Below are positions 1 through 18,440 of a DNA stretch of 20,000 nucleotides, piece after piece. The translations under genes and the position numbers were made by a program. This DNA comes from an uncultured virus (IMG/VR IMGVR_UViG_3300043543_000740) (lineage: Duplodnaviria > Heunggongvirae > Uroviricota > Caudoviricetes): IMG/VR virus record IMGVR_UViG_3300043543_000740, one strand, 5' to 3'. Each line of letters opens with the position of its first letter. Position 1 is the first letter of the stretch. The notes beneath the pieces were generated by a model. That model did not search any database. It worked only from the letters and a program-made list of their open reading frames with translations, and had not been told where the DNA came from.

Positions 1-19
1 GGCACAAACGGAGCGCAAG

Positions 20-311: not shown

Positions 312-332
312 CGAACCCCGAGGAGCGGAACG

Positions 333-560: not shown

Positions 561-561
561 A

Positions 562-621
562 GCCGAAACGCCCCCGCGGGCGTCGCGGCGGGTGGCTCCC
601 GCCGCCTGATGATGGCAGCCA
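562..621 (+). ncRNA. Type II hammerhead ribozyme with pseudoknot (copy 2), predicted cleavage after C584
   Basis: GCC-GAAA-C[GCCC ccgc GGGC]G-UC-[GCGGCGGG tggct CCCGCCGC]-CUGAUGA-t-GGC-AGCCA. Stems covary with copy 1, and loop TGGCT pairs with AGCCA. Confidence 0.9.
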
Positions 622-646
622 ACCCCATCGACCCGGAGCGACGACC

Positions 647-1075
647 ATGACCGCGAAGAAGACCACGAAGAGTTCCCCCGCCCCGAAGAAGGCCACCGGG
701 GGCAAGAAGCCGAAGGCCGCCAAGAACGCGACGCCCGCCGTCGAGGAGCCCGCGAAGACCCCGGAGGCGACCACCCCGCCGGCCGAGGCCGCGGATGCCA
801 AGCCCGCCAAGACCAGGAAGGCCCGCGCCGAGAAGCCGAAGAAGATGAGCGCCCTCGACGCCGCCGCCAAGGTCCTCGGCGAGGCGGGCAGCGCGATGAA
901 CGCCAAGGAGATGATCGAGGCGATGGCGAGCAAGGGGTACTGGACGACCCCCGGCGGGAAGACCCCGCACGCGACCCTCTACGCCGCCATCCTGCGCGAG
1001 ATCACCGCCAAGGGGAAGGAGGCCCGGTTCGCCAAGACGGAGCGTGGCAAGTTCGCCCTCAACGGGGAGGCCTGA
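647..1075 (+). CDS. HARE-HTH (HB1/ASXL/restriction endonuclease) winged-helix protein with Lys/Ala/Pro-rich N-terminal tail (142 aa), outer element
   Basis: Start MTAKKTTK after GGAG; C-terminal [10 protein letters not shown]...[33 protein letters not shown]...RF.K..RGKF pattern. Confidence 0.85.
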
Positions 1076-1083
1076 CCCCGGAC

Positions 1084-1194
1084 GCCGCCCGTTCGCCCAC
1101 GAGGCCCCCACGCGGGGCCTCTTCCCGCTTGCCGTCGTTCCGTTCAACGTGCGCCCTCCGACGCGACGTGGGCCGACGTGGGCGAACGGGCGGC
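1084..1194. repeat. Perfect 18-bp inverted repeat enclosing a hairpin, between convergent genes
   Basis: GCCGCCCGTTCGCCCACG (1084-1101) / CGTGGGCGAACGGGCGGC (1177-1194). Confidence 0.8.
1101..1121. terminator. GC-rich hairpin, possible (bidirectional) terminator
   Basis: GAGGCCCC-cacgc-GGGGCCTC between convergent stops at 1075 and 1144; only a weak U-tract. Confidence 0.45.
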
Positions 1195-1515
1195 CTCCGG
1201 GGCGAGGAACCGGACCGGCTTGCCCAGCGCGCGGGCCATCGCGATCTCCTCCCGCACCCCGATGCTCTCCCGCCACCCGTCGAGCATCAGCACCGCGACC
1301 TCGTCGCACCGCTCCAGGTGGACCCGGTCGATGCGTTCCCAATACGACCATGCGGTCGGCAACTCGAACTCGATGAGCGAGTGGCTGTGGACGATCGGCG
1401 AGAACACGACCTCGCCGGCGCGGAGCAGCGCGGCGGTCGCCCGGCAGGCGGCGCGGAACCGCTCTTCGCGGACCGCGGGGTCGGGATGCGAGTATGGACT
1501 GGCGAGGTAGATCAC
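1144..1515 (-). CDS. DUF1937 family protein (nucleoside 2-deoxyribosyltransferase-like fold), 123 aa
   Basis: IYLASPYSH...VFSPIVHSH...W.RID...L.RCD...L.LDGW.ES.GV.EEI motif; GTG start overlaps the methyltransferase stop (GTGA). Confidence 0.85.
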   Translation of the reverse strand: MIYLASPYSHPDPAVREERFRAACRATAALLRAGEVVFSPIVHSHSLIEFELPTAWSYWERIDRVHLERCDEVAVLMLDGWRESIGVREEIAMARALGKPVRFLAPEAARSPTSAHVASEGAR

Positions 1516-1875
1516 GCGGACACCTCCGCGCCGGTCCGCTCGGCCTTGCGGCCGGTGAACTTCTCCCACCGCTGGACGATGACGTCGCAGTACAGCGGGT
1601 CCAACTCCATCAGGTACGCCTTCCGTCCGGTCTGCTCGGCGGCGATGAGCGTGCTGCCGGAGCCGCCGAACAAGTCGAGAACATGCTCACCCTCGCGGGA
1701 CGAGTACTGCATCGCCCGCACGGCCAACTCGACCGGCTTCTCGGTGAGATGCACCATCGACTGCGGGTTGACCTTCTTCACGCTCCACACGTCCGTGGCG
1801 TTGTTCGGCCCGAGGTAGACGTGCGCCGCGCCCTCGCGCCAGCCGTAGAAGCACCACTCGTGGTTGCCCATGAAG
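1512..1875 (-). CDS. C-terminal half of the interrupted ParB-DNA methyltransferase. It is in frame with the serine recombinase ORF and has a possible independent start ATG at 1871
   Basis: FMGNHEWCFYGW...HLTEKPVEL...VLDLFGGSGSTLIAAE.TGR..YLMELDP.YCDVI (motif I SAM-binding and downstream motifs of beta-class N4/N6 MTases). Confidence 0.92.
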
Positions 1876-3623
1876 TCCCCTCCGGGTAGCCGTGTGGAGC
1901 CATCGGCGAACGCACGCTCCAGGCCCGCGTGTAGGTAGACTGTGCCCGTCTTGTCGTCGGGGTTGACCTCGATCTTCTCGACGAACGCGGCGAGCATCTG
2001 CCGGTCCGCGAGGTCGATGTCCGTCCGCGTCGCCAGGGCGTCGAGTTTGGCGAACTGCTCCATCGCCCAGGCCCGCAGATCGGCCTCGGTGATGATCGGT
2101 GTGGCAGGTTCATCGGTGGGCTTCAAGCGGGCCTCCAGCACGTCGCGCTTGGCCTTCAGGTCGGCCAGGGTGGTCCGCAGTTCGTCCAGACCGTCGAACG
2201 TCGGGTCGGCCAGCATCGACACGGTCGCCTTGATCTTGCGGTTCAGCAGGTCGAGCTCGCGCTCGTCGCCCCGCGTCGGCTTGGCCTTCGCTCGCGGGGC
2301 CAGCACCGCTTTGACGAACGCATCGACCGCCTTCTCGACCGTGGCGTGGTCGCCCAGCAGCACCTTCCGCACAGCATCCAGCACGAACCGGTCGAGGGCC
2401 GGGCCGGGGACGTTCACCACCCGGCAGACCGTCTTGCCGTAGCGGTGGTAGCCCGAGCAGGCGTAGACGCGATAGCCCTCGCCGGTCGGGCCGGGCCAGC
2501 GGCGGTCGCGGATCGTGGTGAACGGGTTGCCACACCGCTTGCACACCAGCAGGCCAGCCAGCAGGGTGCGTTTGGTCGGCCGGGCGTTGCCGTGCTCGGC
2601 CCGCCGCTTGGCCACGGCCCGCTGGGCGGCCGCCCAGGTATCCTTGCTGACCAACGCCTCGTGAACGTCCTCGCTGATGATCCAGTCGGCCTCGGTGTTG
2701 CGCTGCCACATCTTCTTCCGCTTCGGCTTCAGCACGCCCTGGCCGTCGAGGCCGAACAGGCTGCCCATCGTGTGGCGGTTCCAGACGACCGCCCCGCGAT
2801 AGACCGGGTTGCGGATCAGCTTGGCGATGCGGGCCGTGTTCCACTTCTGCCCGCCGGGCGACGGGATGCCCTCGGCGTTGAACGTCTGCGCGATGTGGTG
2901 GAAGCCGTAGCCCTGCACGCACAGGTCGAACATCCGCTTCACCACCGCTACCCGCTCGGGCAGGCTCGGGACGTAGCGGATGATGTCGCTCTTGGCCTTC
3001 TTCAGGTTGACGCCCACCGGGACCACTCGCAGCAGTCGGCCATCCGGCCCGAACTCCTGCTTACTACCGTCGGGCATCCACCGCAGCGTGCGGAGCAGTT
3101 GCCCGTCGCCGGTCAAGTGCTGCTTGTCGTAGCCGTACGGGGCCATGCCGCCGGGCGCGGACTTGCGTTCGCGGATGTTCGAGATCTGGCCCCGGATGCT
3201 GTCGCGGGCGAGCTTGACCGAGTACTGGCGGGCCTGCCAGGATTTGACGCCCTGGATCAGTTCGCCCTCGTCGCCCTCGGGGATGCCGTCGGCAGTGAAG
3301 ACCACGCCGACGCCGGCCAGGTGCAGGCGGTGCAGGTAGAAGCCGGTCTCGTTGGTGCCGCCCCGCGAGAAGCGGGAGATGTCGTAGCACAGCACCGCCT
3401 CGAAGTCGCGGCCGTTCTCGGCGGCCTTCATCATCTGCTCGAAGGCGTCGCGGCCGCGGGCACTGGTGCCGGACACCGCGTCGTCGATGTACCAGCGCAG
3501 CACGCGGTAGCCGTGCTCGGCCGCCCAGCGTTCGACGGCGGCCTGCTGGTCGGGGATCGAGCGTTCCTGCATGTCGGTGCTGCGGCGCGCGTAGCCGACG
3601 GCCGGGATCAAGGTCTTGGTCAT
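1512..3623 (-). CDS. Large serine recombinase (integrase). In the integrated state it reads through the att site into the 120-aa MTase C-terminus (703 aa total)
   Basis: AVGYARRST catalytic motif, YDISRFSR, APYGY, IRNPVYRG, HEALVS, zinc ribbon LLAGLLVCKRCG...YAC...C and coiled coil; GGAG RBS before ATG 3623. Confidence 0.95.
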   Translation of the reverse strand: MTKTLIPAVGYARRSTDMQERSIPDQQAAVERWAAEHGYRVLRWYIDDAVSGTSARGRDAFEQMMKAAENGRDFEAVLCYDISRFSRGGTNETGFYLHRLHLAGVGVVFTADGIPEGDEGELIQGVKSWQARQYSVKLARDSIRGQISNIRERKSAPGGMAPYGYDKQHLTGDGQLLRTLRWMPDGSKQEFGPDGRLLRVVPVGVNLKKAKSDIIRYVPSLPERVAVVKRMFDLCVQGYGFHHIAQTFNAEGIPSPGGQKWNTARIAKLIRNPVYRGAVVWNRHTMGSLFGLDGQGVLKPKRKKMWQRNTEADWIISEDVHEALVSKDTWAAAQRAVAKRRAEHGNARPTKRTLLAGLLVCKRCGNPFTTIRDRRWPGPTGEGYRVYACSGYHRYGKTVCRVVNVPGPALDRFVLDAVRKVLLGDHATVEKAVDAFVKAVLAPRAKAKPTRGDERELDLLNRKIKATVSMLADPTFDGLDELRTTLADLKAKRDVLEARLKPTDEPATPIITEADLRAWAMEQFAKLDALATRTDIDLADRQMLAAFVEKIEVNPDDKTGTVYLHAGLERAFADGSTRLPGGDFMGNHEWCFYGWREGAAHVYLGPNNATDVWSVKKVNPQSMVHLTEKPVELAVRAMQYSSREGEHVLDLFGGSGSTLIAAEQTGRKAYLMELDPLYCDVIVQRWEKFTGRKAERTGAEVSA
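1876..1898. other. att junction at the integrase end (crossover TC/GA 1876-1877; attP arm 1884-1898)
   Basis: GGGTAGCCGTGTGGA (1884-1898) is the exact reverse complement of TCCACACGGCTACCC (12471-12485); each arm is 6 nt from the shared dinucleotide. Confidence 0.92.
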
Positions 3624-3648
3624 GGGTTCGTCTCCGGGTTGCGCACCG

Positions 3649-3670
3649 ACGCCCCGCATGGGCGGGGCGT
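3649..3670. promoter_or_regulatory. Hairpin between the HARE-HTH and integrase genes (possible attenuator/terminator)
   Basis: ACGCCCCGC-atgg-GCGGGGCGT, perfect 9-bp stem, no U-tract. Confidence 0.45.
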
Positions 3671-3689
3671 GGCGGCGGGTTGTTTGGAA

Positions 3690-3989
3690 TCAGGCCAGCG
3701 TGAACCGGCCGCGGGCGACCTTGTGGAACTTGGCATCCTTGCCCTTGGCCCGGATCTGTCGCAGTAGGGAGGCGTACAGGGTCGCGGCCGGGGTCTTGCC
3801 CGCCGGGCTGCTCCAGAGCCCCTTGGCCATCATCGCCTCGACCATCTCACCGCAGGTCATCGGCTCGCCGGCGTCGGCCAGGACGCGCTCGGCGGCGGCG
3901 ATCTGGCTCAGCTTCTCGGCCGGGGCCGGTTGCGGTTCAGGCTTCTTCTTCGGGGCTGCCTTCTTCTTCGTGGTCGTCTTCGTCGCCAT
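3690..3989 (-). CDS. HARE-HTH winged-helix protein of the inner element (99 aa), homologous to 647..1075
   Basis: LSQIAAAERVLADAGEPMTCGEMVEAMMAKGLWSSPAGKTPAATLYASLLRQI...KF.K..RGRF; GGAG RBS. Confidence 0.88.
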   Translation of the reverse strand: MATKTTTKKKAAPKKKPEPQPAPAEKLSQIAAAERVLADAGEPMTCGEMVEAMMAKGLWSSPAGKTPAATLYASLLRQIRAKGKDAKFHKVARGRFTLA

Positions 3990-4320
3990 CGTGGTTCTCC
4001 CGCATCGGGTCGTCGTGGTCGCGGGGCGACGATCCCTCCGCGTCAGGACAGTCAGTTACAAGCCGGTTCGCCCCGGTTCCAGCGACTTCCGGCCCGATTC
4101 CGGGAGATTCTTCCGGGGCCAGCAGGTGCTTCCGACCCGCCCGGATGTCGGCCTCGAGTTGTTTGAAGAACCGCCACTCCCACAACGGCACCAGCACCAC
4201 GTCCGCCTTGCCGTAGCGGGTGATGACGACCGGCTCGTCGGTGCGGGCGACGTGCAGGCAGACCATGCCCAGCCCGTCGCGCAGCAGCGACACCGCCATC
4301 TTGTGCTCGGTCGGCTTCAT
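3937..4320 (-). CDS. Phd/YefM antitoxin-like DNA-binding protein (no adjacent toxin seen)
   Basis: ...SLLRDGL...VARTDEPVVITRYGKADVVLVP.WEW matches the Phd/YefM pattern; AAGGA RBS; the C-terminal tail is poorly supported and overlaps the next gene. Confidence 0.7.
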   Translation of the reverse strand: MKPTEHKMAVSLLRDGLGMVCLHVARTDEPVVITRYGKADVVLVPLWEWRFFKQLEADIRAGRKHLLAPEESPGIGPEVAGTGANRLVTDCPDAEGSSPRDHDDPMRENHDGDEDDHEEEGSPEEEA

Positions 4321-4405
4321 GGTTCCTTTCCGGGTTTGGCTCCCCGCGATGAGGTCGGGCGGAACAGGCACGGGGAACAAGACACACATCTTGTGACCAA
4401 CAAAA

Positions 4406-4498
4406 TCCGGACCTGTACAAGAAGGAAACTGTGCTTACCCCGGTCGGTGTTCCGCGTGCCAATTTTTCTTTTCGATCCGGCCGGGAAGGAACCATTGG
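4406..4498 (-). promoter_or_regulatory. Putative packaging (cos/pac-like) signal of the inner element
   Basis: Minus strand CCAAT-GGTTCCT-T-CCCGGCCG-N24-GGAACA-N14-CACAGTTT...GTCCGGA; same blocks and N24/N14 spacing as 13659-13746. Confidence 0.6.
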
Positions 4499-4556
4499 CC
4501 AGTTGTTGCGTGTGCAACACCTGATCCATTTGAATCACCCGGTCCGGCGGGTTGTC

Positions 4557-4746
4557 TTCCACACGGCTACCCCGCGACCTCTCATCGTGCCGCGCGTGCT
4601 TGTGCGCGCTTCCTATACCCGCCCCCCGGGGTGCGTTCACGCACCCACGGGGGGTATAAGGGGGGTGCGCGCACACACACACAGACACCCGAGGCGGGTC
4701 AGCAAGACGCCGGGAGGAAGTTTCCACACGGCTACCCCGCGACCTC
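4557..4746. repeat. Two 25-bp direct repeats containing the attP arm, flanking a nested palindrome (putative origin of replication)
   Basis: TTCCACACGGCTACCCCGCGACCTC at 4557-4581 and 4722-4746. Nested inverted repeats: TGTGCGCGC/GCGCGCACA (4601-4609/4667-4675), TATACCC/GGGTATA (4614-4620/4652-4658), GGGTGCG-ttca-CGCACCC (4629-4646). Confidence 0.85.
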
Positions 4747-4759
4747 ATGAACGCGGTCA

Positions 4760-6349
4760 TCACTCATCCTCCGGCTGGGGTCGCGTGGCGAACTGGACCG
4801 GCTGGTTGGCTCCGAACTTCCAGCGGTGGACGAGCCCGGCGGCCTCGGCCTGCTTGAGCAGCTTCTTGGCCAGCGGTTCGGGCACATCCGCCTCCGTGGC
4901 CCGGTGGACGATGCGCGCCGTCATGGCGGGCGTCTTGGTCACGAACGCCGCCACGAACGAAGGGACGGTCCACTCCGGCTTCGACGGCTTGGCCGGCTCG
5001 GGCTGCGGGGTCGGCTTCGGCTTGCGGCGGAGCTTCTCGGACTTGAGGTCGGACGGGTCGAGCGCGTCCTCGACGGTCCAGACCGGGAACGACCAGCGCA
5101 GACACCTGGGTTCGATCGGCGGCCACGAGCGGACGGCGGCGTCGAGGACGGCCACTCCGGGCTCCTCGTGCGGACGCAGGACGAGGTGCGTGTCCGCCGC
5201 ACGCGACTGCGCCCCGGCCCCCGCGCCGACATCCGTGACCGCCTTGCCCGACTGGTTCCCCTTGGTGCTGTGGTGGATCAGCACGAACGCGCACTGCAAC
5301 TTCGCGGCATAGGCGTCCAGCACGTTGTACACCTGGGCCATCGTGCCGTTGTCGTTCTCGTCCGTGTCCCTCGGCATCGCCCGGTAGAAGGCGTCGATCA
5401 CGACTAGCTTGTACCTGCCCGGCTCGATCCGGCTGAAGCACGGCCCCAGGCCGAAGATGTCTTTCAGCTTGCCACGCAGGTTCACGATGTCGATGCGGTC
5501 GCCGCACTCGGCGAGCGTGATGCCGCGGGCCTCCATGACCTTCGGGATGCGGCCGGCCGACGTTTCCTTGTGCAACTCGTTGTCGATGAGCAGCACCCGG
5601 CCCTGTTCGCACGGGAACAGATCGAGCCACGGGCGGCCGGTCGCCACGGCCAGGGCGAGGTCGCTCACCAGCCAGGACTTGCCGACCTTGGGCGAAGCGA
5701 TGACGTTCAGCGTCTCGCCTTCGCGGAGCAGCCCATGCACGACCGGCGGTCGCAGGTGCGGATACCGCATGACGAGTTCGCGGAGCGACTGGATGGGAAA
5801 CTCGTCCGGCTCCGACTTGGCGGGTGTCGGCACCGGCTTGGTCCCGGTGCGAAGCCACTCCAAGTTGCCGGGCTTCTTGGTGAGCGGTGCCGGCTCGGGT
5901 TCCGGCGGTTCGTCCCAATCGTCGTCGGGACGGGGTGGTTCGGTGGGTTGGTCGAAGTCGATCGGCTCGGCCGCCCAGCGTTCGACTCGAGTGAGCCAGC
6001 GTTCCAGTTCCACGCCGAAGTCGCGCTCCTCGGCATCGGGGTTGAACCACGCCTGCTCGACGAACGCCAGCGCGTGATGCCGACCGCGCAGTTGAGCCGC
6101 CAGAACCTCGTGGCCCGGCGTGTACCACTCCGCGCCGTCACGCTCGACCCGCGCGTTCTCCCGGGCGATCTGCCGCTGCTCCTCGACGAACTGGATCACC
6201 TCGATGTCCGGCCGGAGCCACTGCGACGCCTCGCGGGCACCGAGGAGAAATCCCTCCCGATAGGCATGCTCGGCCTGCTCCCGATGCGGATGGCCCTCGG
6301 GCAGCACGGAATCGCCGTAGTAGGGCACCATTTCAGTTGCGTTCGACAC
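4760..6349 (-). CDS. AAA_25/RepA-like (SF4-type) replicative helicase with unknown N-terminal region and probable C-terminal winged helix (529 aa)
   Basis: Walker A ASPKVGKS, VLLIDNE, Walker B LVVIDA, LIHHSTK, GAGAQSRAAD; GTG start at 6349 with GGAGGT RBS. Confidence 0.88.
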   Translation of the reverse strand: MSNATEMVPYYGDSVLPEGHPHREQAEHAYREGFLLGAREASQWLRPDIEVIQFVEEQRQIARENARVERDGAEWYTPGHEVLAAQLRGRHHALAFVEQAWFNPDAEERDFGVELERWLTRVERWAAEPIDFDQPTEPPRPDDDWDEPPEPEPAPLTKKPGNLEWLRTGTKPVPTPAKSEPDEFPIQSLRELVMRYPHLRPPVVHGLLREGETLNVIASPKVGKSWLVSDLALAVATGRPWLDLFPCEQGRVLLIDNELHKETSAGRIPKVMEARGITLAECGDRIDIVNLRGKLKDIFGLGPCFSRIEPGRYKLVVIDAFYRAMPRDTDENDNGTMAQVYNVLDAYAAKLQCAFVLIHHSTKGNQSGKAVTDVGAGAGAQSRAADTHLVLRPHEEPGVAVLDAAVRSWPPIEPRCLRWSFPVWTVEDALDPSDLKSEKLRRKPKPTPQPEPAKPSKPEWTVPSFVAAFVTKTPAMTARIVHRATEADVPEPLAKKLLKQAEAAGLVHRWKFGANQPVQFATRPQPEDE

Positions 6350-6503
6350 GTTGCACCTCCTCCCGGCCGCGGAGCCACTGGGCCAGGAGCCATGCCGCCA
6401 ACGCCTCGGCGCGCCGCTCGACGCGGGCCTGGGCCTCGGGCGCGGGGTCGCTGAACGCCACGGTGAACGTGAACGAGCCGATCTGCGGGTTGGTGTCGGA
6501 CAT
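6333..6503 (-). CDS. Small hypothetical protein, 56 aa (MSDTNPQIGSFTFTVAFSDPAPEAQARVERRAEALAAWLLAQWLRGREEVQRVERN); absent from the ORF track
   Basis: AGGAG RBS, coding-like codon usage, stop overlaps the helicase start region. Confidence 0.65.
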   Translation of the reverse strand: MSDTNPQIGSFTFTVAFSDPAPEAQARVERRAEALAAWLLAQWLRGREEVQRVERN

Positions 6504-6637
6504 GGCCCCTCTCCTGTGCCGGTCCTGCCGAGGCAGGGATGAACCCCACGGCGGGGTTCGGCGACGGCTTGCCGGGTCGGCAAGTCGCGTTCGCCAGAGG
6601 CGAAGAGGGTCGGTCGATAGGTTGTGTCAGTGGGCTG

Positions 6638-8479
6638 TCAGTTCTCCCCTTTGGCCTTGTACGCGGCCCGGTGGTCGGCCAGCGCGGCCCCGTAGTCGAA
6701 GTAGACCCGCCAGGACACGGCCAGCTTATTCGGCTCCGCATCCATGCCGAAGAACTCGACGTTCGGCGACTGAACACCTTGCAGGAAGGCGACGATCAGC
6801 GGGGTGTCGGCCGGCCCGGCGAACAGGTACCACGCCTTCGCCGAGGTGCCGCTGAACCGCCCCGCGTTCGACAGTCGCGGCTCCACTTCCAGCGTCACGG
6901 CGTTCTTGAGGGCGTTGCCGGTGGGCACGTCGTTGTTGGCCCGCTGCAGAAAGTCGCTCATGAGCAACTCCTTGGCGGTCTGCTGCAACTCCGGCGGCAC
7001 CAGCAGCACGCGCGGCCGGATGTCCAGATCGCGGCCCTCGCCGTCGCGCTGGCTCATCATCTTGGCGATGCCCGCCCCCAGCGACGCGCTGGACAACGCC
7101 GTGGCCGTCCCGGTGTCGTAGTTGGCGTGGCCGCCGCTGAAGAAGTTCCCGGCGTTGGCCAGCAGCACCTGGTACACGAGGTCGCTCAAGGACCGCATCG
7201 CCGCCCGGCCGAGGTTCCGGGCCGTCTCGTCGAACAACGATAAATCGTCGTTCACAACATCCCTGCGGTCGATGCTGAGCATCTTGGCGAAGGTGTCGAT
7301 GCGGAACGGGTAGGTCATCTCCTTGATGGAGCCGTGCTTGATCTCGCCGCCGGGGGCCAGCTGGGTGAGGTCCCCCACGTCACTACCCCGCACCCCGGTG
7401 TGCGGCTTGAAGTCCGTCGCCGACTTGATGCCCGCGAACGACCGCCACGTCGCCGGCGTCTCGGTGTAGGCGTCCATCAGCAGCTTGTTGGCCGCGTCAC
7501 CCAACGCCACCGGCAGTGAGTAGGTGGACAGCGCGGCGCGGATCAGGGCGTCCCGGCTGCTGGGAATGTCCCGGCCGTCGAGTTGCAACGCCGCCCGGCA
7601 CAGGTCGATCAGGTTCGTGGCCCGGAGGTCGCGGGCCTGCTGGGCTGCCGTGGCCCCGAGGTGCCGTTCGGCGAGGTGTTCGTAGCCCATGTGGCTCAGC
7701 ACCGCCGCCTCCAGCGTCTGTCGGGTCGTGGTGAACGTCCGGCTGTGGATCGTCGTCACCTGCGGCCGGCTGGCACGCAGGACTTCGAGCCGCGTGCGGC
7801 GGACATCCCAGCCTTCCACGATGGCGCGGGCCTCGATGTCGCCGAACTGCCCGCCGCACGCGGTGCGGATGGCGTGGACCCGCTCCGTCTCGGCCAGGGC
7901 CGCCGCTCGGATGTCATCGGCCGTCTGCGTCTCGTTCATGGTGCTCTCCTTCCCTTGGGCCGCGATGGCGACCGACGTGTTCGCATCGGCCCCGATGGCG
8001 ACGATGCTCACCTCCCGCAGCACGCCGGCCTTGACCAGCGTGAACCCACTCCGTCCGGCGGTGATCGCCCGGCCGTTCACCTGCACGGATTCGCCGCCAC
8101 GAACCCGCTCGTAATCGGTAGGCATCACGCCGACCGATGCTTGGAACTTGAACCCGCCCCGAGCGAGTTCAACCACCTGCCGGGCCGCCTCGGTCACGCC
8201 GGTAAGCGTGCCGTGGACGAGCAGCTTGCCGTCGATCACCTGCGCGCGGCCGTGCCCGACGATGCCGTCGAGTGTGGCGTCGTGGTCCGCCAAGAGGCTG
8301 ATCTGCTCGGCTCCGGCATCAAGCCCCGCGAGGTCGATGGCAACCGGCCCCCAGCCCGGCACCGTCATCAGCCCGCCCGTGTACGCCACGATGGAAACGC
8401 TCGGCGGTTTGCCGGACGCGGCTTGAATCTCGACCTCGGCGGATGACAGCAGGATTTCTTGAGACGCAGTGGAACGCAT
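6638..8479 (-). CDS. Prohead protease-major capsid protein fusion (HK97 fold, Mu gpT-like), 613 aa
   Basis: N-terminal protease motifs LLADHD..IVG, FQASVG, LREVSIVAIGAD; capsid motifs ANKLLMDAY....TW, DFK, GGEIKHG, TFAKMLSIDRRDVVNDDL, PRVLLVPPEL, AWYL, V.FDYGA..DHR. Confidence 0.88.
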   Translation of the reverse strand: MRSTASQEILLSSAEVEIQAASGKPPSVSIVAYTGGLMTVPGWGPVAIDLAGLDAGAEQISLLADHDATLDGIVGHGRAQVIDGKLLVHGTLTGVTEAARQVVELARGGFKFQASVGVMPTDYERVRGGESVQVNGRAITAGRSGFTLVKAGVLREVSIVAIGADANTSVAIAAQGKESTMNETQTADDIRAAALAETERVHAIRTACGGQFGDIEARAIVEGWDVRRTRLEVLRASRPQVTTIHSRTFTTTRQTLEAAVLSHMGYEHLAERHLGATAAQQARDLRATNLIDLCRAALQLDGRDIPSSRDALIRAALSTYSLPVALGDAANKLLMDAYTETPATWRSFAGIKSATDFKPHTGVRGSDVGDLTQLAPGGEIKHGSIKEMTYPFRIDTFAKMLSIDRRDVVNDDLSLFDETARNLGRAAMRSLSDLVYQVLLANAGNFFSGGHANYDTGTATALSSASLGAGIAKMMSQRDGEGRDLDIRPRVLLVPPELQQTAKELLMSDFLQRANNDVPTGNALKNAVTLEVEPRLSNAGRFSGTSAKAWYLFAGPADTPLIVAFLQGVQSPNVEFFGMDAEPNKLAVSWRVYFDYGAALADHRAAYKAKGEN

Positions 8480-8673
8480 GAGGTGACCGACCTCCCCGGA
8501 ACGACGGAACGGAAGCAACCGGTCGGGCACGGTGCCCGCCGGTCGAGGGGTGGTTGGATGGGTGGGTCGTTGGGTTGGGTCGGTCGGTCGATGGGTTCGT
8601 TCGGGTCGTCAGGGTGGGAAGGTTTGCTCCCGGTCCTTGGCCGTCATGGCGCGACCGTTCCCCGACTGGAAGA

Positions 8674-8702
8674 ATTGTAGCGGATGTACACCTTGACGAC
8701 AA
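8674..8702 (-). promoter_or_regulatory. Sigma70-like promoter for the capsid-helicase operon
   Basis: Minus strand TTGTCG-N17-TACAAT in the AT-richer divergent intergenic region. Confidence 0.6.
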
Positions 8703-8770
8703 GCCCGGGAGATGATTTTCTTTCGTATAACAATGTTCTCATCGAGAAAGGCATCCCGAGAGTACTTGCC

Positions 8771-11700
8771 ATGCGTCGTTCCCTATCGTCCTGGGCCAAG
8801 AGCATCTTCCCGACCGCCCCGACTCGGCCGATCCGTAAGCCTCGTTCCTTGACCCTGGAACAGTTGGAAACGCGCGACTGCCCGACCGTCCTGCCGCCGG
8901 GCGGCCCCGAACCGCAGCCGCCCGGCCCCGGCTTCCCGCCGGTAGCCAACCCGGACCACTTCGCCTTCGCTCCCGACGCGCCGATCCGCATCAGCGTCGC
9001 CGACCTGCTGGCCAACGACACGGCCGCGCCCGGCGTGCCGCTGACGGTCGAACTGCTCGATAGCCCCGCCGGCGGGCAACTCGACCTGATCGACGTGGGC
9101 CTGTGGGAGTACACGCCCGGCACCGGTTTCAGCGGCAGCGACGCTTTCAGCTACCGCCTCTTCGACGGCACCGATTACAGCCTGCCCGCCCTCGTGACCT
9201 TCGAGCAGCAGCCCACCCCGCCAAGCACACCAGCCACACCCACCGTCACCGACGTGACCGAGGCGTGGCTGACCGGCTTCGAGGATGAGGCCCTCGGCAG
9301 TGTCACCGTCGCGGTGTTCGAGACGGCCGAGGCGGACGTGCTCGACTGGACCGCCAGCATCGACTGGGGCGACGGCACCACAACCACCGGGCAGATCGTG
9401 GCCGACGGCGACGGCCGGTTTCGCGTCGTGGGCGAACACACCTACGACGCGTGGGGCCTGTACCTCGTGCAGGTCACGCTGACCGACACGGTCGAGGAGA
9501 CGCACGACCTCTACAACCTGGCGAGCATCCAGTTCCGCAACTACACTTACACGTTTACCGACCCGATCGGCAACAGCACGCAGTTCGTCTTCGCCGAGGG
9601 CTGGCAACTCACGCAGGAGATCGACCCGCTCGGGAATTCGACCTTCTACAGCTACACCACCGACGGCCTGCTCGCCAGCCGCACCGACCGGCTGGGCCGG
9701 GCCATCACCTTCGACTACGGCACCGACGGCGTGCTCCTGAGCCAGACGTGGCTGGCCGCCGACCTGACCACCGTGGTGGACACGCTGTCGTTCAGCTACA
9801 CCAGCGACGGCCTTTTGCTCAGTGCGAGCAACGGCGTCGGGGCGTACACATTCAGTTGGGCCGACGGGGTGCTGACCGGCGTGACCAACCCGTTCGGGGT
9901 GACGCTGACGTTCGGCTACGACACCGACGGCCGACGGACCTCGGTGGCCGACTCGTTCGGCGGGCTGATCACCTCGACCTACACCGACGGCCTGCTCAGC
10001 AGCCGGACGCTCGTGGCCGGGGCGTTGAACCTGCGGGTCGATCTGGGCTACGACGCCGACGGGGTGCCGACCCAGATCAGCCGGTTCGCCGGGCCGCTGC
10101 AGGAGTTGGTGTCGCAGACGGAGTACGCCTTCGCGCAGGGCTTGCTCGCCTCGATCACGCATCGCGGCGCGGGCGGGGTGATCCTCGACCAGTTCCTCTA
10201 CCAGTTCGACGAGGACGGCTTCCTCTCGCAGATCACCTCCGACTTCGTGGGCGAGACCGACTACGCCTACGACGCCGACGGGCAGTTGACCGGCGAATCG
10301 TCAATCTTGGTGTCCAGCACGTTCAGCTACGACGCCAACGGGAACCGGGTGGGCGGCGGGTACGTCGTCGGGCCGGGCAACCGCCTGCTGGCCGACGGCA
10401 CGTGGAGCTACAGCTACGACGCCGAGGGGAACCTCGTCGGCAAGACGCACCTCGTGACCGGCGATAGTTGGACCTACAGCTACGACCACCGCAACCAGAT
10501 GACCCTGGCCGAGAAGCGTGACGCGAGCGGGTCGGTGGTGCTCTACGCAGTCTACAAGTACGACGTGTTCGGCAACCGCATCGAGAAGGCGGTGGACTGG
10601 GACGGTGATGGACCAAACACGCCAGTCATGACGCGGTACGTGCTTGACGGCTGGAACAACATGAAGCCGACGCCGGTCGGCAACGAGCACTTCGACGTGT
10701 ACGCCGAGTTGGACGGCACGAATCAGTTGATCGCCCGGTATCTGCACGGCGACGAGTTCGACCAGACGTTCGCGCGGGTGTTGGTGGACGGCAGCACGCC
10801 CGAGGTCCACTGGCTGTTGGCCGACCACCTGAACTCGGTGCGTTTGGTGCTGGACGAGAGCGGCGCGGTACTCGACCAGATCGCCTATGATGCCTTCGGC
10901 AATATCGTGGCGCAGCTGAACCCGCTGCTCGTTAACCCGATCCTGTTCGCCTCGCGCGAGTTCGACGCCGAGACGGGCCTCTACTACAACCGCGCCCGCT
11001 ACCTCGACCCCACCACCGGCTGCTGGACCACGCAAGACCCGCTCGGCTTCGCCGCCGGCGACGCCAACCTCTATCGCTACCTGAACAACAGCCCGACCCT
11101 TGCCACCGACCCGAGTGGCTTGATCTGGTATCCGGGGAAGTATCTGTACCAGATGTACAGCGAATACCGACGGGGTCAGGAACTGGATCGCCAGATTAAC
11201 CAGCATCGTGCCACGCAAAACTTACCGCCACTCCCGCCGCCGCCTCACTGGGCACGAGTGGCTGTCACGGAGTTTGGTGATGGTCTGCGGATCGGGTTTC
11301 AAGCCAACGTGAATGCGGTAGCGACGGCCGGACGTTCGTTGGTCACCTTGGGTATCTGGGCCGAGCCGTGGGAAGTGTGGGCAGTGGATGACGTCGATCG
11401 GCCGTTCTACGAGGATGGGTTTTTGGCTGCACGCTTCGGCTGGGAGTTGCTGCCGACGGCGGGGATTGGCAAGCTGACGCAAGTGCCGGGTCAGATGGGT
11501 CGCTGGGGCCGGTACGCTCTGTACTGGGACGCTGGCCAGAATGTTGTCCAGGTCGGTCGGGGTGGTTATGATATCTACGAAAACGGCCTGACCTGGACGA
11601 ATGGCCTGCAAGTCGGCGGCCTGCTCGGACTGGGCGGCAACTACACCACTTGGCGGAGGCTGCCGAGTGTAGCTCCAGCAGGTAAGGGGGGAAGAGGGGA

Positions 11701-11980
11701 CATCATGCGGATGGCCCCGTCTGATGCCCCTCGGTCTGCCGCCGAGGCCGCCTTGCGACGGGAAGCAGAATTGCGACAGCGAATCCTGGCAGATCGTCTT
11801 GCTGAGTTAGGTCACGGTGAGGGTGGTGCTGTCGGAAAGGGAGCGACCCGCCTTCCTCCTGAAGCAGCGAATGATCCCACGGCCCGAGGTATGTGGGAAG
11901 AGTTGCAAAGGATTCGTCGCCAGATTGCTGACCTTCGCCGTAACCCGCCTTCTGGCCCCCGTGAAATGCTGGAACCTTGA
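8771..11980 (+). CDS. Rhs/YD-repeat polymorphic toxin with planctomycete export motif, Ig/cadherin-like domains, short Rhs cage and an unknown ~285-aa C-terminal domain (1069 aa)
   Basis: LTLEQLETRDCP; PVANPD..LLAND..YTP..F.G.D.F.Y; IDWGDG...HTY; YD repeats; Rhs core GLYYNRARYLDP..G.W...DPLG...NLYRY..NSP....DPSGL. Confidence 0.92.
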   Translation: MRRSLSSWAKSIFPTAPTRPIRKPRSLTLEQLETRDCPTVLPPGGPEPQPPGPGFPPVANPDHFAFAPDAPIRISVADLLANDTAAPGVPLTVELLDSPAGGQLDLIDVGLWEYTPGTGFSGSDAFSYRLFDGTDYSLPALVTFEQQPTPPSTPATPTVTDVTEAWLTGFEDEALGSVTVAVFETAEADVLDWTASIDWGDGTTTTGQIVADGDGRFRVVGEHTYDAWGLYLVQVTLTDTVEETHDLYNLASIQFRNYTYTFTDPIGNSTQFVFAEGWQLTQEIDPLGNSTFYSYTTDGLLASRTDRLGRAITFDYGTDGVLLSQTWLAADLTTVVDTLSFSYTSDGLLLSASNGVGAYTFSWADGVLTGVTNPFGVTLTFGYDTDGRRTSVADSFGGLITSTYTDGLLSSRTLVAGALNLRVDLGYDADGVPTQISRFAGPLQELVSQTEYAFAQGLLASITHRGAGGVILDQFLYQFDEDGFLSQITSDFVGETDYAYDADGQLTGESSILVSSTFSYDANGNRVGGGYVVGPGNRLLADGTWSYSYDAEGNLVGKTHLVTGDSWTYSYDHRNQMTLAEKRDASGSVVLYAVYKYDVFGNRIEKAVDWDGDGPNTPVMTRYVLDGWNNMKPTPVGNEHFDVYAELDGTNQLIARYLHGDEFDQTFARVLVDGSTPEVHWLLADHLNSVRLVLDESGAVLDQIAYDAFGNIVAQLNPLLVNPILFASREFDAETGLYYNRARYLDPTTGCWTTQDPLGFAAGDANLYRYLNNSPTLATDPSGLIWYPGKYLYQMYSEYRRGQELDRQINQHRATQNLPPLPPPPHWARVAVTEFGDGLRIGFQANVNAVATAGRSLVTLGIWAEPWEVWAVDDVDRPFYEDGFLAARFGWELLPTAGIGKLTQVPGQMGRWGRYALYWDAGQNVVQVGRGGYDIYENGLTWTNGLQVGGLLGLGGNYTTWRRLPSVAPAGKGGRGDIMRMAPSDAPRSAAEAALRREAELRQRILADRLAELGHGEGGAVGKGATRLPPEAANDPTARGMWEELQRIRRQIADLRRNPPSGPREMLEP

Positions 11981-11988
11981 GGAAGATC

Positions 11989-12321
11989 ATGATGGAAAGA
12001 AAGAACGGTCGAATCGTCGGCGGCTCTTTCGATGAGCTTGTGGCGATGCTATCTTCGTCCAATCACTTCGACCGGGCTGAGGCGGCCAGGCTGCTCGTCA
12101 ACATGCGGAAGGAGGCCATCAAGGCATTACCCGCACTTCTGGCTCTGCACAATGACCCCTGTGATCTGGTTCGCATTCAAGTACCCCGTGCGATTATTCA
12201 CATGGAAGCTCGCCCTGATGAGGCTGCTGAGGTTCTACGCTGCCTTTTGAATGACAAGAACAAGATCGTCAGGCTGTATGCTGAAGAAGCGCAGCAGTTT
12301 CTCACCCAGCGAACGTCATAG
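11989..12321 (+). CDS. HEAT-repeat protein, probable Rhs immunity protein (110 aa)
   Basis: Directly follows the toxin; RAEAARLL / ALPALLALHNDP.DLVR / LLND.NKIVR..A HEAT-like repeats; lower GC. Confidence 0.75.
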   Translation: MMERKNGRIVGGSFDELVAMLSSSNHFDRAEAARLLVNMRKEAIKALPALLALHNDPCDLVRIQVPRAIIHMEARPDEAAEVLRCLLNDKNKIVRLYAEEAQQFLTQRTS

Positions 12322-12427
12322 CTCTTTGTGTGCTGCTCGTCCCGAAGTACGCCGCCGCCTTTTCACCCCCCGGAGTCCCAATCAAGAACACAGGCCGGGG
12401 TAGCTACCAGCCTAGCCTGAAAAATGT

Positions 12428-13438
12428 TCACATCCACACGTTTCCCCGTTCCCACTCGAACCCGACCCGTTCCACACGGCTACCCCGTGAATCCTTGCGG
12501 GTGAGCACCGGGTGCTCCTTCACCCAGATGATCGCCTGCGAAAAGTACAACTCGCAGGCCTTCAGCACCGGCGGGTAGTTGGCGCAGTTGGCGTAGCCGC
12601 CCCAGATGTAGAAGCCGCGGCCGGGCTCCAGCACGCGGGCGAGGTTCCCGAACCACGCGGCCAAGAGCCGGTCGAACTCGGCGTCGGAGACGAAGTCGTT
12701 GGCGAGCGGCCGGTCCTTGGCGCGGAGCTTCTTCCCCGTCGGTTTGGCCTTCTCGGGGTGGCGCTCGACGTCGAGCTTCTGGTGGTGGGTGGTGCCGGCG
12801 AACGAGGAGAGGCCGGCGGCGATGGCGTTGTTGGAACGCGGCTCGACCTTCACGTTGTACGGCGGGTCGGTGTTCACCAGGTGGATGCCCGCGCCGCCGA
12901 GCAACCGGTCCACGTCCGCCGGCTTGCTGCTGTCGCCGCACAGGAGGCGGTGGTCGCCCAGCACCCACAGGTCGCCCGGTTTGGTCGTCGCCTCGTCCGG
13001 CGGTTCGGGCACCTCGTCCGGGTCGGTCAACCCGTCCTTCAGGGTCGGGTCGAGCAGCTTCGCCAGCTCGTCCGCGTCGAAGCCGAGGAGCGCGAGGTCG
13101 TAGTTGGCCTCCTTCAGCCCGGCCAGTTCGATCGGGAGCAGGTCGTAGTCCCACGTCGCCAGCGACGCCGTCTGGTTGTCGGCGATCCGGTAGGCGCGGA
13201 TCTGCTCGGGGGTCAGGTCCGTGGCGACGTGGACCGGCACCTTCTCCAGGCCCAGCTTCAGTGCCGCCTTGTAGCGCGTGTGGCCGACGACGATGACGCC
13301 CTCGGCATCGACGACGATCGGCTGGCGGAACCCGAACTCGCGGAGCGACGCCGCGACCGCATCGACCGCGTCGGCGTTATCCCGCGGGTTGCCGGGGTAC
13401 GGCTTCACGTCGGTGATCTTCCAGAGTTCGATCTTCAC
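12428..13438 (-). CDS. N-terminal part of the ParB-N + DNA (N4-C/N6-A, beta class) methyltransferase, truncated by the element and ending in a 20-aa element-derived tail
   Basis: PYPGNPR..N, FGFRQPIVVD, GHTR..AA, YRIADN (ParB-like); W.LG.HRLLCGDS; TDPPYNV (motif IV); IIWVKE...TRKD; GTG start at 13438 with GGAGG RBS. Confidence 0.93.
   Translation of the reverse strand: MKIELWKITDVKPYPGNPRDNADAVDAVAASLREFGFRQPIVVDAEGVIVVGHTRYKAALKLGLEKVPVHVATDLTPEQIRAYRIADNQTASLATWDYDLLPIELAGLKEANYDLALLGFDADELAKLLDPTLKDGLTDPDEVPEPPDEATTKPGDLWVLGDHRLLCGDSSKPADVDRLLGGAGIHLVNTDPPYNVKVEPRSNNAIAAGLSSFAGTTHHQKLDVERHPEKAKPTGKKLRAKDRPLANDFVSDAEFDRLLAAWFGNLARVLEPGRGFYIWGGYANCANYPPVLKACELYFSQAIIWVKEHPVLTRKDSRGSRVERVGFEWERGNVWM
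12471..12493. other. att junction at the Rhs end (attP arm 12471-12485; crossover TC/GA 12492-12493)
   Basis: TCCACACGGCTACCC-CGTGAA-TC-CTTGCGGGTGAG; methyltransferase homology stops exactly here. Confidence 0.92.
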
Positions 13439-13658
13439 AGGTCGTCCCTCCAGGTTTCGCCGTGGTACAGCTCGATGGCGGTCAGCTCGTGGGCAGGTCG
13501 CCTCTCGACTCCGAACGGCTCGGTCGGCACGGGGCGGGCGCGGCGCGTCCCGGCCTCGCTGAGCTAGGCCGGGCGGCCGACGCATCGAAGGCAATAGGGG
13601 CCGTGCGGCGTGTCCCGACCGCACCCCTCACATCAGCGCATGGAGCACCTCTCCGAAG

Positions 13659-13746: not shown

Positions 13747-13865
13747 ACCGATCGACCTTCGGGGCGTAGCGGCATCGGCCACGCCGATGTTCGGATCTCA
13801 CCACGAACCAGAAACGATGGATCGGCACCTCCAACACGATGAAGAACAAGAAGAGAATCCGAGGG

Positions 13866-14005
13866 GGAGGTAGTTCGTAGTTTTTGGTAGCCACCCTTTC
13901 TCTCCTCCAGCGCCGATCGCGCACACACGAGGTGGGTGCGAAAAACGACGAACTACCTCCTTCACGCGGAGACAAGGCGGGTACGAAAAACTACGAACTA
14001 CCTCC
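13866..14005. repeat. Three 20-bp iteron-like repeats (two direct, one inverted), putative origin of the outer element
   Basis: AAAAAC(T/G)ACGAACTACCTCC at 13941-13960 and 13986-14005; exact reverse complement of the latter at 13866-13885; at the 3' end of the primase gene. Confidence 0.8.
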
Positions 14006-17781: not shown

Positions 17782-17787
17782 GGCTCT

Positions 17788-18363: not shown

Positions 18364-18440
18364 GGGGTGACTCGTGAGGAATGGTGGCGGCCACGGCCCG
18401 GCGCGGGGGCACCGGGTGAACGTGCGTCAGGGGACTGCGA

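What the first reader, a model, noticed from the sequence alone, without database searches (positions are those of the whole stretch)
4406..4498. Satellite carries a spacing-conserved mimic of the outer element's putative packaging signal
Seen: inner CCAAT-GGTTCCTT-CCCGGCCG-N24-GGAACA-N14-CACAGTTT-N13-GTCCGGA (4498->4406) versus outer CCAAT-AGGTACT-CCCGGCCG-N24-GGAACA-N14-CACAGTTT-N9-GTCCGGA (13746->13659). The blocks and the N24/N14 spacings are identical while the spacer sequences are unrelated, which suggests selection for protein recognition. Both sit just downstream of a replication gene plus repeats, in the same orientation. The first block resembles lambda cosQ (GGGTCCT). Inference: a cos-like site that lets the terminase-less satellite use helper terminase.
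Basis: partly seen in the sequence, partly recalled or inferred. Interest (0 to 1): 0.85.

Follow-up and report, generated by a model that had tools for sequence, protein, structure and literature searches.

The report
Shared phage promoter-like site, not shown cos
A small capsid-encoding satellite sitting inside a prophage gene carries a copy of a roughly 90-base signal that hundreds of related prophages keep in front of one conserved gene, and this signal looks more like a promoter read by a phage-encoded sigma factor than like a DNA packaging site.

Summary
Both copies exist as described, on the minus strand, with identical blocks and N24/N14 spacings.

- **What the window holds.** A prophage carries a 10.6-kb satellite (about 1879-12494) inserted by a large serine recombinase into its ParB-methyltransferase gene. 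A 99.9% identical prophage without the insert proves this.
- **How widespread the motif is.** It is a family-wide element of about 90 bp. It occurs in 59 of 80, 67 of 80 and 59 of 80 related loci, mostly Planctomycetota prophages. It is always a single copy, on the gene strand, between the replication gene and the conserved ParB-methyltransferase gene.
- **What it is not.** It has no RNA structure.
- **Promoter-like features.** Its invariant core is GGAAC, then 19 nt, then TTT. The TTT lies as little as 21-27 nt from the start codon.
- **A cognate sigma.** The helper encodes an ECF-type sigma factor, and one satellite relative encodes its own.

Best reading (about 0.6): a promoter for the phage sigma. 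The satellite copies it in front of its Phd-like/HARE-HTH/recombinase operon.

A cos or pac role (about 0.15) is not excluded, because the motif is the only non-coding element the two share. It lies 3.7 kb upstream of the terminase gene, and no fixed DNA end was seen.

The parts
4406..4498 (-). Inner (satellite) copy of the motif: block 1 GGTTCCTTCC, GGAACA (-35-like), CACAGTTT (-10-like), GTCCGGA
   Evidence: profile E 1.7e-7; weight matrix 19.3 bits
13659..13746 (-). Outer (helper prophage) copy of the motif, directly upstream of the ParB-methyltransferase gene
   Evidence: profile E 7e-16; weight matrix 44.0 bits, the only site in the 49.5-kb helper record
1879..12494 (-). Helper-embedded satellite, about 10.6 kb. 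Junctions are good to +/-3 nt; only TCC is shared at the crossover
   Evidence: the uninterrupted helper record G002 matches window 1-1890 and 12484-20000 at 99.8-99.96%; junction sequences
1512..3659 (-). Large serine recombinase (aa 1-580) reading in frame across the junction into the 3' part of the helper methyltransferase gene (aa 594-708)
   Evidence: Pfam Resolvase, Recombinase, Zn_ribbon_recom and N6_N4_Mtase in one ORF; PHROG integrase plus methyltransferase
3690..3989 (-). HARE-HTH protein, 99 aa. This is the satellite stretch most similar to helper DNA (75% over 183 nt)
   Evidence: Pfam PF05066 E 1.3e-14; blastn
3937..4320 (-). Phd/YefM-family small protein, the first gene downstream of the inner motif
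   Evidence: NCBIfam TIGR01552 22.3 bits (cutoff 20.8); Pfam PF02604 E 1.5e-5, below its cutoff
4557..4746 (+). Two direct 25-nt repeats (4557-4581, 4722-4746). They contain the same 14-mer as the two ends of the satellite
4760..6583 (-). Satellite replication protein (AAA_25 domain; primase/helicase PHROGs)
6638..8530 (-). Satellite protease-major capsid fusion, homologous to the helper's own
   Evidence: Pfam Phage_capsid_4; phrog_4523 E 1.6e-78; helper homologue
8684..12321 (+). Cargo on the opposite strand: RHS-repeat/Big_9 protein (8684-11980) and a HEAT-repeat protein (11977-12321)
12428..13624 (-). 5' part of the helper ParB-methyltransferase gene, cut by the satellite near aa 378-393. 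The conserved start (VKIELWK) is near 13438
   Evidence: a variant contig replaces 13432-13647 by 16 nt
13865..14006 (.). Helper-specific repeats of 30-44 nt (two direct, one inverted) between the primase gene and the motif; origin candidates
13991..16912 (-). Helper Prim-Pol/PriCT primase-helicase

Best explanation
The motif is a promoter region of a family of (mostly Planctomycetota) temperate phages. It has a -35-like GGAAC box, a -10-like nAnTTT box 19 nt further on, a conserved upstream block (GGTnCyTnCC, about 38 nt before GGAAC) and a conserved early transcribed block (GTTTyG..TGTCCG).

It is most likely read by host RNA polymerase carrying the ECF-type sigma factor that these phages encode in their early region. 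It switches on ParB-methyltransferase and the genes that follow towards the terminase.

The satellite is embedded in the helper's ParB-methyltransferase gene and keeps a copy of this promoter in front of its Phd-like, HARE-HTH and serine recombinase genes. Its excision module would then be expressed when the helper's sigma appears.

Shown: the anatomy, conservation, single copy, position, lack of RNA structure, presence of the sigma gene, and the nesting. Inferred: that the sigma reads this site, that it is a middle or late promoter, and what the satellite gains from it.
For: 1. Spread and position.
- Selected by the satellite's AAA_25 protein, 59 of 80 IMG/VR loci carry the motif.
- Selected by ParB-methyltransferase, 67 of 80 IMG/VR loci and 59 of 80 loci from genome assemblies carry it.
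- It is always one copy on the gene strand.
- It stands behind three different kinds of replication gene: AAA_25, Prim-Pol/PriCT, and Prim-Pol/DUF3987 or D5.
- In 50 of the 59 loci of the first set ParB-methyltransferase follows on the same strand.

2. Distance to the start codon.
- In the ParB-selected set the motif often ends 16-24 nt before the MKIEL start.
- In the shortest forms the invariant TTT is 21-27 nt from ATG with AAGGA between, for example L032, L036, L041 and L062.
- That leaves room only for a transcription start and a ribosome-binding site.

3. Invariant columns are G.GGAAC and TTT, which resembles an ECF-type -35.

4. A cognate sigma is encoded.
- The helper record encodes a 189-aa protein (G002 14388-14954, about 64 nt beyond the window end).
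- It has 59 homologues, many with Sigma70_r2 or Sigma70_r4_2 and named ECF sigma factors by their sources.
- NCBIfam sigma70-ECF gives E 6.5e-9 over positions 25-162 of 165.
- The nearest Atlas clusters are viral sigma clusters at 0.97-0.98.
- Satellite relative L008/L009 encodes its own such sigma, at 45.1 bits against a cutoff of 42.9.
- Sigma homologues are in 11 of 13 whole records with the motif. The two misses are 60-75% complete.
- Three records that lack the GGAAC part also lack the sigma.

5. It is not RNA. RNAalifold gives 0 pairs. The spacer folds no better than shuffles, mean z 0.13 over 101 instances. No covariation was found.

6. Repeats next to each replication gene are specific to each element, so the shared motif is not the origin.

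7. The pairing recurs.
- A second helper-satellite pair, G003, has two copies: helper 68.6 bits and satellite 55.6 bits.
- All 4 distinct satellites whose region is covered keep the motif between AAA_25 and the Phd-like gene: the window, L008/9, L010/11 and L257.
Against: - No transcript start could be seen. The only RNA run held nothing at either copy, and all runs were contigs.
- The -10-like box (nAnTTT, with G not invariant) and the 19-nt gap do not fit the usual ECF layout of GGAAC-N16-17-CGT as I recall it.
- The helper sigma scores below NCBIfam's cutoff (35.6 against 42.9 bits) and had no Pfam sigma hit itself.
- Sigma and motif are not exclusive partners. Four of 7 records without a profile hit still have a sigma, and only one of those has a diverged motif.
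- Only one site per 49.5-kb phage is found. A sigma with a single target is possible but unusual.
- In the helper G002, two genes on the other strand lie between ParB-methyltransferase and the terminase gene. One transcript to the terminase is therefore not evident there.
- The strongly conserved upstream block at about -75 is not explained by a plain ECF promoter.
- The motif is the only non-coding element shared by satellite and helper. A packaging signal would also be expected to be shared.
Confidence: 0.6

Rival explanations
1. It is a packaging signal (cos or pac recognition site). The conserved blocks would be binding sites for the helper's small terminase or accessory proteins, and the satellite copy would let helper terminase package satellite DNA into capsids built from the satellite's own capsid protein.
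For: - There is a single copy per phage genome.
- It is the only non-coding element shared by satellite and helper at word size 7.
- The satellite has no terminase gene and must be recognised somehow.
- Its place between the replication and terminase regions is where cos lies in many temperate phages (general knowledge).
- Eight of 80 ParB-selected contigs begin within about 225 nt of it, and 3 of 59 AAA_25-selected contigs end 19-124 nt after it.
Against: - It lies 3.7 kb upstream of the terminase gene in G002. ParB-methyltransferase, DUF1937 and other genes lie between.
- A small conserved gene sits directly before the terminase gene, where a site would be expected.
- Contig ends lie at scattered positions, and contigs from both sides mostly include the whole motif. 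This fits assembly breaks at a mosaic boundary (contigs branch at 13674), not one terminus.
- No conserved dyad that could be a nicking site was found.
- The tight coupling to a start codon and the GGAAC box with a phage ECF sigma are left unexplained.
Confidence: 0.15
2. It is an operator or regulatory site for another phage protein, with or without promoter activity. Candidates are the ParB-methyltransferase itself (autoregulation), the HARE-HTH protein shared by helper and satellite, or a late activator bound at the upstream block.
For: - Five conserved blocks span about 90 bp, more than RNA polymerase alone needs.
- The upstream block survives in variants that have lost the GGAAC part, namely L151 and L175.
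- The distance from block 1 to GGAAC varies by only +/-1 nt: 37 nt in 47 instances and 38 nt in 39 instances, of 99.
- HARE-HTH is the most similar stretch between satellite and helper.
- ParB-methyltransferase is unusually conserved, at 67-87% identity to the helper's in the first set of loci.
Against: No binding data exist. Nothing ties any one protein to the site. This reading overlaps the promoter reading rather than replacing it.
Confidence: 0.15
3. It is a replication origin or priming site used by the neighbouring replication protein.
For: It always lies 250-450 nt after a replication gene. That is the usual place of origins in satellites (general knowledge).
Against: - The same motif follows three unrelated kinds of replication protein.
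- Element-specific repeats lie between gene and motif and are better origin candidates.
- The motif tracks the downstream gene.
Confidence: 0.05
4. It is a structured RNA: a leader, a small RNA or a ribozyme.
For: It is a conserved non-coding element with conserved spacing. Two hammerhead ribozymes lie elsewhere in the same prophage.
Against: - No Rfam hit at E <= 1 at either copy.
- RNAalifold predicts 0 pairs in 35 sequences.
- No excess folding and no covariation.
Confidence: 0.02

Closest known systems
Late promoters shared by phage P2 and its satellite P4 (activated by Ogr or delta). Recalled, not from a call
   Same: Satellite and helper carry the same special promoter architecture, so each can be switched on by the other's transcription factor. 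Satellite L008/9 carrying its own sigma would parallel P4 delta.
   Different: Here the factor would be an ECF-type sigma, not a zinc-finger activator. The hosts are Planctomycetota. The satellite sits inside the helper. Nothing has been tested at the bench.
Helper-embedded PICIs (Tommasini, Mageeney and Williams 2023, PMC10111431; I read the abstract and passages found with five search terms)
   Same: [quoted passage not shown] That paper proposes helper-driven late transcription and delayed expression of the interrupted gene.
   Different: Those elements use one clade of integrases, and the word serine occurs 0 times in the text. They occur in Gram-negative enterics and share a 258-bp, 90% identical region at the lambda cos position. 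Here the integrase is a large serine recombinase read in frame into the target gene. The targets are ParB-methyltransferase and the large terminase, and the shared element is a block motif far from the terminase gene.
Lambda-type cos sites and their copies in cos-type PICIs (EcCICFT073, as cited in PMC10111431)
   Same: A short cis-element copied by a terminase-less satellite; a single copy per genome.
   Different: It is not adjacent to the terminase genes. No terminus was seen. No nicking dyad was found.
ECF sigma factor promoters (GGAAC at -35, CGT-type at -10). Recalled
   Same: An invariant GGAAC, a downstream T-rich box at fixed spacing, and a cognate sigma encoded in the same element.
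   Different: The gap is 1-2 nt longer. The -10-like box is nAnTTT. Extra conserved blocks lie upstream and downstream. The sigma gene shows no copy of the motif before it in G002.
Capsid-forming PICIs (cited in the reference list of PMC10111431; otherwise recalled)
   Same: The satellite encodes its own capsid protein.
   Different: Only the protease-capsid fusion is present. There is no portal, no terminase and no head-tail connector.

Membership tests
cos / packaging site | Lies next to the terminase genes (upstream of the small terminase gene) | tested here: not met
   It is 3.7 kb upstream of the large terminase gene in G002. In about 100 loci the terminase gene lies 2.5-4 kb beyond the ParB-methyltransferase start. 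A small conserved gene directly precedes the terminase gene.
cos / packaging site | Virion DNA ends map in it | not testable with these tools
   Only metagenome contigs were available. Contig ends near the motif are scattered.
cos / packaging site | One copy per genome, shared by satellite and helper | tested here: met
ECF-sigma-dependent promoter | -35 box GGAAC | tested here: met
   G.GGAAC is invariant in 35 aligned instances. It is present in 101 of 104 unique instances at the expected place.
ECF-sigma-dependent promoter | -10 box of CGT type, 16-17 nt after the -35 box (consensus recalled) | tested here: inconclusive
   The box is nAnTTT, with TTT invariant, 19 nt after GGAAC. It is similar but not the textbook layout.
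ECF-sigma-dependent promoter | Cognate ECF sigma encoded by the same element | tested here: met
   Helper protein P0001. It is present in 11 of 13 motif-bearing records. It lies just outside the window.
ECF-sigma-dependent promoter | Transcript starts a few nt after the -10 box; same strand and short distance to a gene | tested here: inconclusive
   Strand and distance are met. The start itself was not observable.
Helper-embedded satellite (HE-PICI sense) | Integrated within a gene of its helper prophage, co-oriented, lacking a terminase | tested here: met
   relatives in the terminase gene
Helper-embedded satellite (HE-PICI sense) | Integrase belongs to the single clade described for HE-PICIs | tested here: not met
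   The integrase here is a large serine recombinase with Resolvase, Recombinase and Zn_ribbon_recom domains. No tree was built. The paper never mentions serine.
Structured RNA | Conserved base pairs with covariation | tested here: not met
Replication origin | Specific to its own initiator protein | tested here: not met
   The same motif follows three kinds of replication gene. Element-specific repeats lie beside it.

The most novel reading that the evidence does not exclude
A family of capsid-encoding satellites with serine recombinases lives inside essential or conserved genes of Planctomycetota prophages. These satellites would be wired to their helpers by promoter mimicry. The helper's own ECF-type sigma would fire the single phage promoter and the satellite's copy at once, timing satellite excision so that the broken helper gene is restored. 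Satellites that carry their own sigma (L008/9) could in turn switch on helper late genes, as P4 does to P2. The same 90-bp element might also serve as the packaging recognition site, since it is the only cis-element the partners share.
Probability: 0.3. Interest if true: 0.75.

Novelty: new variant of a known kind. Interest (0 to 1): 0.6.

Why it matters
Four things would follow if the promoter reading holds:
- It would give a first defined promoter-and-sigma pair for phages of Planctomycetota, a phylum for which my searches found no cultured relative of this phage.
- It would show that helper-embedded satellites are not confined to one integrase clade in enteric bacteria.
- It would give a second, independent example of a satellite and helper sharing a dedicated promoter.
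- The 90-bp motif, together with the very conserved ParB-methyltransferase gene, is a practical marker. It finds these prophages, and the satellites nested in them, in metagenomes.

Tried and rejected
- **Own genome.** It is not held, so copy number in the host could not be counted. The nearest genome, G001 (290 contigs), holds the sigma at 100% identity but no motif (best E 0.028). It is too fragmented to interpret.
- **MAFFT of the two intergenic regions.** The blocks were misaligned and the result was of no use.
- **Cultured relatives.** blastn of the helper region and tblastn of ParB-methyltransferase against 50,697 phage records gave no full-length match above 60%. Known genome ends could therefore not be used.
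- **Sequencing runs.** 24 runs were listed, all kept as contigs, and one was RNA with a 0.05 share of the words. When laid, the RNA run covered nothing at either motif. No start, end or strand could be read, and this says nothing about expression.
- **Consensus scans.** No sigma-70 promoter or intrinsic terminator was found around either copy.
- **Spacer hairpin idea.** Rejected.
- **Sequence link between sigmas.** The helper sigma and the L008 sigma, and the L011 225-aa protein and the L008 sigma, show no BLASTP similarity.
- **Motif in genomes with distant sigma homologues.** 0 of 5 genomes had it, but only 150 of up to 3,917 candidates were scored per genome, so this is uninformative.
- **Earlier findings of this scan.** Nothing was on record.
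- **Literature.** Searches for a known ParB-methyltransferase promoter motif and for phage-encoded ECF sigmas driving late genes returned nothing relevant in the listings.
- **Conserved element upstream of the terminase gene.** The region upstream of the terminase gene was aligned (82 sequences). Only a small coding gene is conserved there.

Full report
**1. The observation**

Both copies are present on the minus strand exactly as described, with the same blocks and the same N24 and N14 spacings, and with unrelated spacers. The combined pattern matches only these two places in the window. That test is post hoc.

Independent measures also pick out both copies:
- A profile built from 35 instances (the window's two and 33 from other contigs, so not independent of them) scores the outer copy E 7e-16 and the inner copy E 1.7e-7 in about 1 Mb searched.
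- A 38-nt weight matrix gives 44.0 and 19.3 bits. No other site reaches 8 bits in the window or in the 49.5-kb helper record. Five shuffles reached at most 2.2 bits.

**2. What the window is**

Gene calls by Pfam and PHROGs show a prophage replication region:
- Sak4-like ATPase, DUF669 single-strand binding protein, RusA, a helicase, and a Prim-Pol/PriCT primase at 13991-16912.
- The 5' 380 codons of a ParB-methyltransferase gene at 12428-13624.

The 3' part of that gene reappears at 1512-1890, fused to the end of a large serine recombinase ORF (1512-3659). An IMG/VR record (G002) is 99.8-99.96% identical to window 1-1890 and 12484-20000, and carries an intact 498-aa ParB-methyltransferase. 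The stretch of about 1879-12494 is therefore an insertion. Only TCC is shared at the crossover, and the ends are inverted copies of one 14-mer. This fits a serine recombinase.

The insert encodes, on the minus strand:
- a protease-capsid fusion like the helper's;
- an AAA_25 replication protein;
- a Phd-family protein (TIGR01552 above its cutoff);
- a HARE-HTH protein;
- the recombinase.

On the other strand it carries an RHS-repeat protein and a HEAT-repeat protein. There is no terminase and no portal. It is a satellite embedded in its presumed helper.

In the helper, genes follow the motif in this order:
- ParB-methyltransferase;
- a DUF1937 protein;
- a block on the other strand;
- a 70-aa ORF;
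- the large terminase, 3.7 kb from the motif;
- portal;
- protease-capsid;
- tail genes.

**3. The motif is a family-wide element**

The strict pattern finds a third, independent version in a 56% GC provirus with no DNA similarity to the window (L007). It again lies between a Prim-Pol gene and a ParB-methyltransferase gene.

| Loci selected by | Collection | Loci with the motif |
|---|---|---|
| Satellite AAA_25 protein | IMG/VR | 59 of 80 |
| ParB-methyltransferase | IMG/VR | 67 of 80 |
| ParB-methyltransferase | genome assemblies | 59 of 80 |

Nearly all records in the genome-assembly set are titled as Planctomycetota (Gemmataceae, Phycisphaerae, Pirellulales and others).

In every case there is one copy, on the strand of the flanking genes. 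Some loci without a hit are cut short, or carry diverged forms.

The consensus is TAGGTACTnCC, about 19 variable nt, GAcGCCcGCG-GGAACAGCcGC, cAA-N4-gACAGAGTTT, GTTTyGccTGTCCGg. The invariant columns are G..T.CT.C, G.GGAAC and TTT.

The first block comes in three flavours: AGGTACT, GGTTCCT and GGGTCCT.

**4. It is read as DNA, and it goes with the downstream gene**

- Rfam finds nothing at either copy.
- RNAalifold predicts no pair in 35 sequences.
- The variable spacer folds no better than shuffles (mean z 0.13, 101 instances).
- No column pair covaries.

The upstream gene is of three unrelated kinds. In 50 of the 59 AAA_25-selected loci a ParB-methyltransferase with 67-87% identity follows on the same strand. 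The nine exceptions are four satellite loci and five loci with less than 2 kb of sequence left.

In the ParB-selected set the motif often ends 16-24 nt before the MKIEL start codon. In short forms that lack the last block, the invariant TTT is 21-27 nt from ATG, with AAGGA between.

Beside each replication gene lie repeats specific to that element. These are better origin candidates than the shared motif.

**5. A phage sigma factor**

A 254-aa ORF in the helper's early region has a true length of 189 aa according to its identical database entry. It lies at G002 14388-14954, about 64 nt beyond the window's end.

Evidence that it is an ECF-type sigma:
- Its nearest Atlas clusters are viral Sigma70_r2/ECF clusters at 0.97-0.98.
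- It has 59 homologues, many with PF04542 or PF08281, named ECF sigma factors by their sources. Some are planctomycete proteins.
- It matches NCBIfam sigma70-ECF over almost the whole model, at E 6.5e-9 and 35.6 bits. This is below the cutoff of 42.9.

Its distribution:
- It occurs in only 6 of 201 sampled genomes of the phylum, so it is a mobile gene.
- Homologues lie 5.5-6.5 kb upstream of the AAA_25 gene in 23 further loci.
- With a profile (A3), 11 of 13 whole records that have the motif hold a sigma. The two misses are 60-75% complete.
- Of 7 records without a profile hit for the motif, 4 hold a sigma. One of these has a diverged motif (E 1.7e-5).
- The other 3 records lack both. Two of them are kin that kept the first block but lost the GGAAC part.

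So the link is suggestive, not exclusive.

Satellite relative L008/L009 encodes its own ECF-type sigma, at 45.1 bits, above the cutoff.

**6. The satellites**

- Relatives L008/9 and L010/11 have the same gene order and the motif between AAA_25 and the Phd-like gene. They are inserted in the helper's large terminase gene near aa 297-316, with the recombinase ORF running into the GpA nuclease domain.
- L257 is inserted in ParB-methyltransferase near aa 316 and also has the motif.
- Four more contigs (L258-L261) start inside the recombinase gene, so their motif region is not covered.
- Record G003 holds both a helper copy (68.6 bits) and a satellite copy (55.6 bits). This is a second independent pair.
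- Satellite copies score lower than helper copies: 30.9-53 bits against 57-74 bits.

Helper-embedded satellites are in print for a different integrase clade in enteric bacteria (PMC10111431; I read the abstract and passages). That paper reports a 258-bp shared region at the lambda cos position.

**7. Weighing promoter against cos**

For a promoter:
- the ECF-like GGAAC box;
- a cognate phage sigma;
- the orientation;
- the coupling to a start codon;
- the position in front of an operon in both elements.

For cos:
- single copy;
- the only shared non-coding element;
- a conserved terminase;
- no terminase in the satellite;
- an excess of contig ends nearby.

Those contig ends lie at different positions on both sides, and most of the contigs contain the whole motif. 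Laid contigs branch at 13674, the edge of a block. This is what assemblers do at a boundary between conserved and variable sequence.

I put the promoter reading at about 0.6, cos at about 0.15, another regulatory binding site at about 0.15, an origin at about 0.05, and structured RNA at about 0.02. A dual role is possible.

No transcript start and no virion end could be observed. The assignment rests on anatomy and co-occurrence.

**8. Novelty**

Satellites that share a helper's promoter (P2/P4, recalled) and satellites embedded in helper late genes (PMC10111431) are known kinds.

New here:
- the serine recombinase;
- the in-frame read-through into the target gene;
- the planctomycete hosts;
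- the own capsid gene;
- a sigma-type promoter motif conserved over hundreds of prophages.

My two literature searches for the motif or for phage ECF sigmas driving late genes listed nothing relevant. I did not read those papers.

Noticed in passing
window 247-313 and 561-624, + strand: Two type II hammerhead ribozymes (Rfam RF02276, 61 and 53 bits; gathering score 37). They lie between short + strand ORFs (2-247, 333-560) and ahead of a HARE-HTH-like stretch (about 859-1036). They sit in the helper prophage, on the strand opposite to the ParB-methyltransferase gene.
   Followed up: partly
window 1512-3659; L008 9694-12828; L011 9888-13049; L257-L261: The serine recombinase ORF has no stop of its own before the junction and reads in frame into the 3' part of the target gene. 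The target is the methyltransferase in the window and the GpA nuclease in L008 and L011. In L257-L261 the recombinase and target matches lie in the same frame by coordinates. Stop codons between them were not checked there.
   Followed up: partly
window 1884-1897, 4559-4572, 4724-4737, 12472-12485: The 14-mer CCACACGGCTACCC occurs four times. Two copies are at the two ends of the satellite, in inverted orientation. Two direct copies lie between the AAA_25 gene and the inner motif. Shuffles give a mean of 0.29. These may be recombinase-binding arms reused near the promoter-like site.
   Followed up: partly
L035 8458-10623; L027; L029; L079; L019: The conserved ParB-methyltransferase gene is split by other insertions. 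About 830 bp is inserted at aa 386 (L035 is one continuous 721-aa ORF, possibly an intein). About 2.3-2.4 kb is inserted near aa 260. The window's satellite sits at aa 378-393, so this gene is an insertion hot spot.
   Followed up: no
window 8684-12321, + strand: The satellite carries a 1098-aa RHS-repeat/Big_9 protein followed by a 114-aa HEAT-repeat protein on the opposite strand. This looks like a toxin-and-immunity type of cargo.
   Followed up: no
window 13432-13647: A contig in run X1 replaces these 216 nt by 16 nt, which brings the ParB-methyltransferase start codon close to the motif. The 62-codon N-terminal extension in this prophage is therefore probably leader, not coding.
   Followed up: partly
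L151 and L175, about 3800-4000: Variant upstream regions keep the first block (TAGGTACTTCCCGGGCC) and a GTTTGTTTT stretch, but have GGGTTCC in place of GGGAAC and are about 17 nt shorter. Their records hold no sigma homologue.
   Followed up: partly
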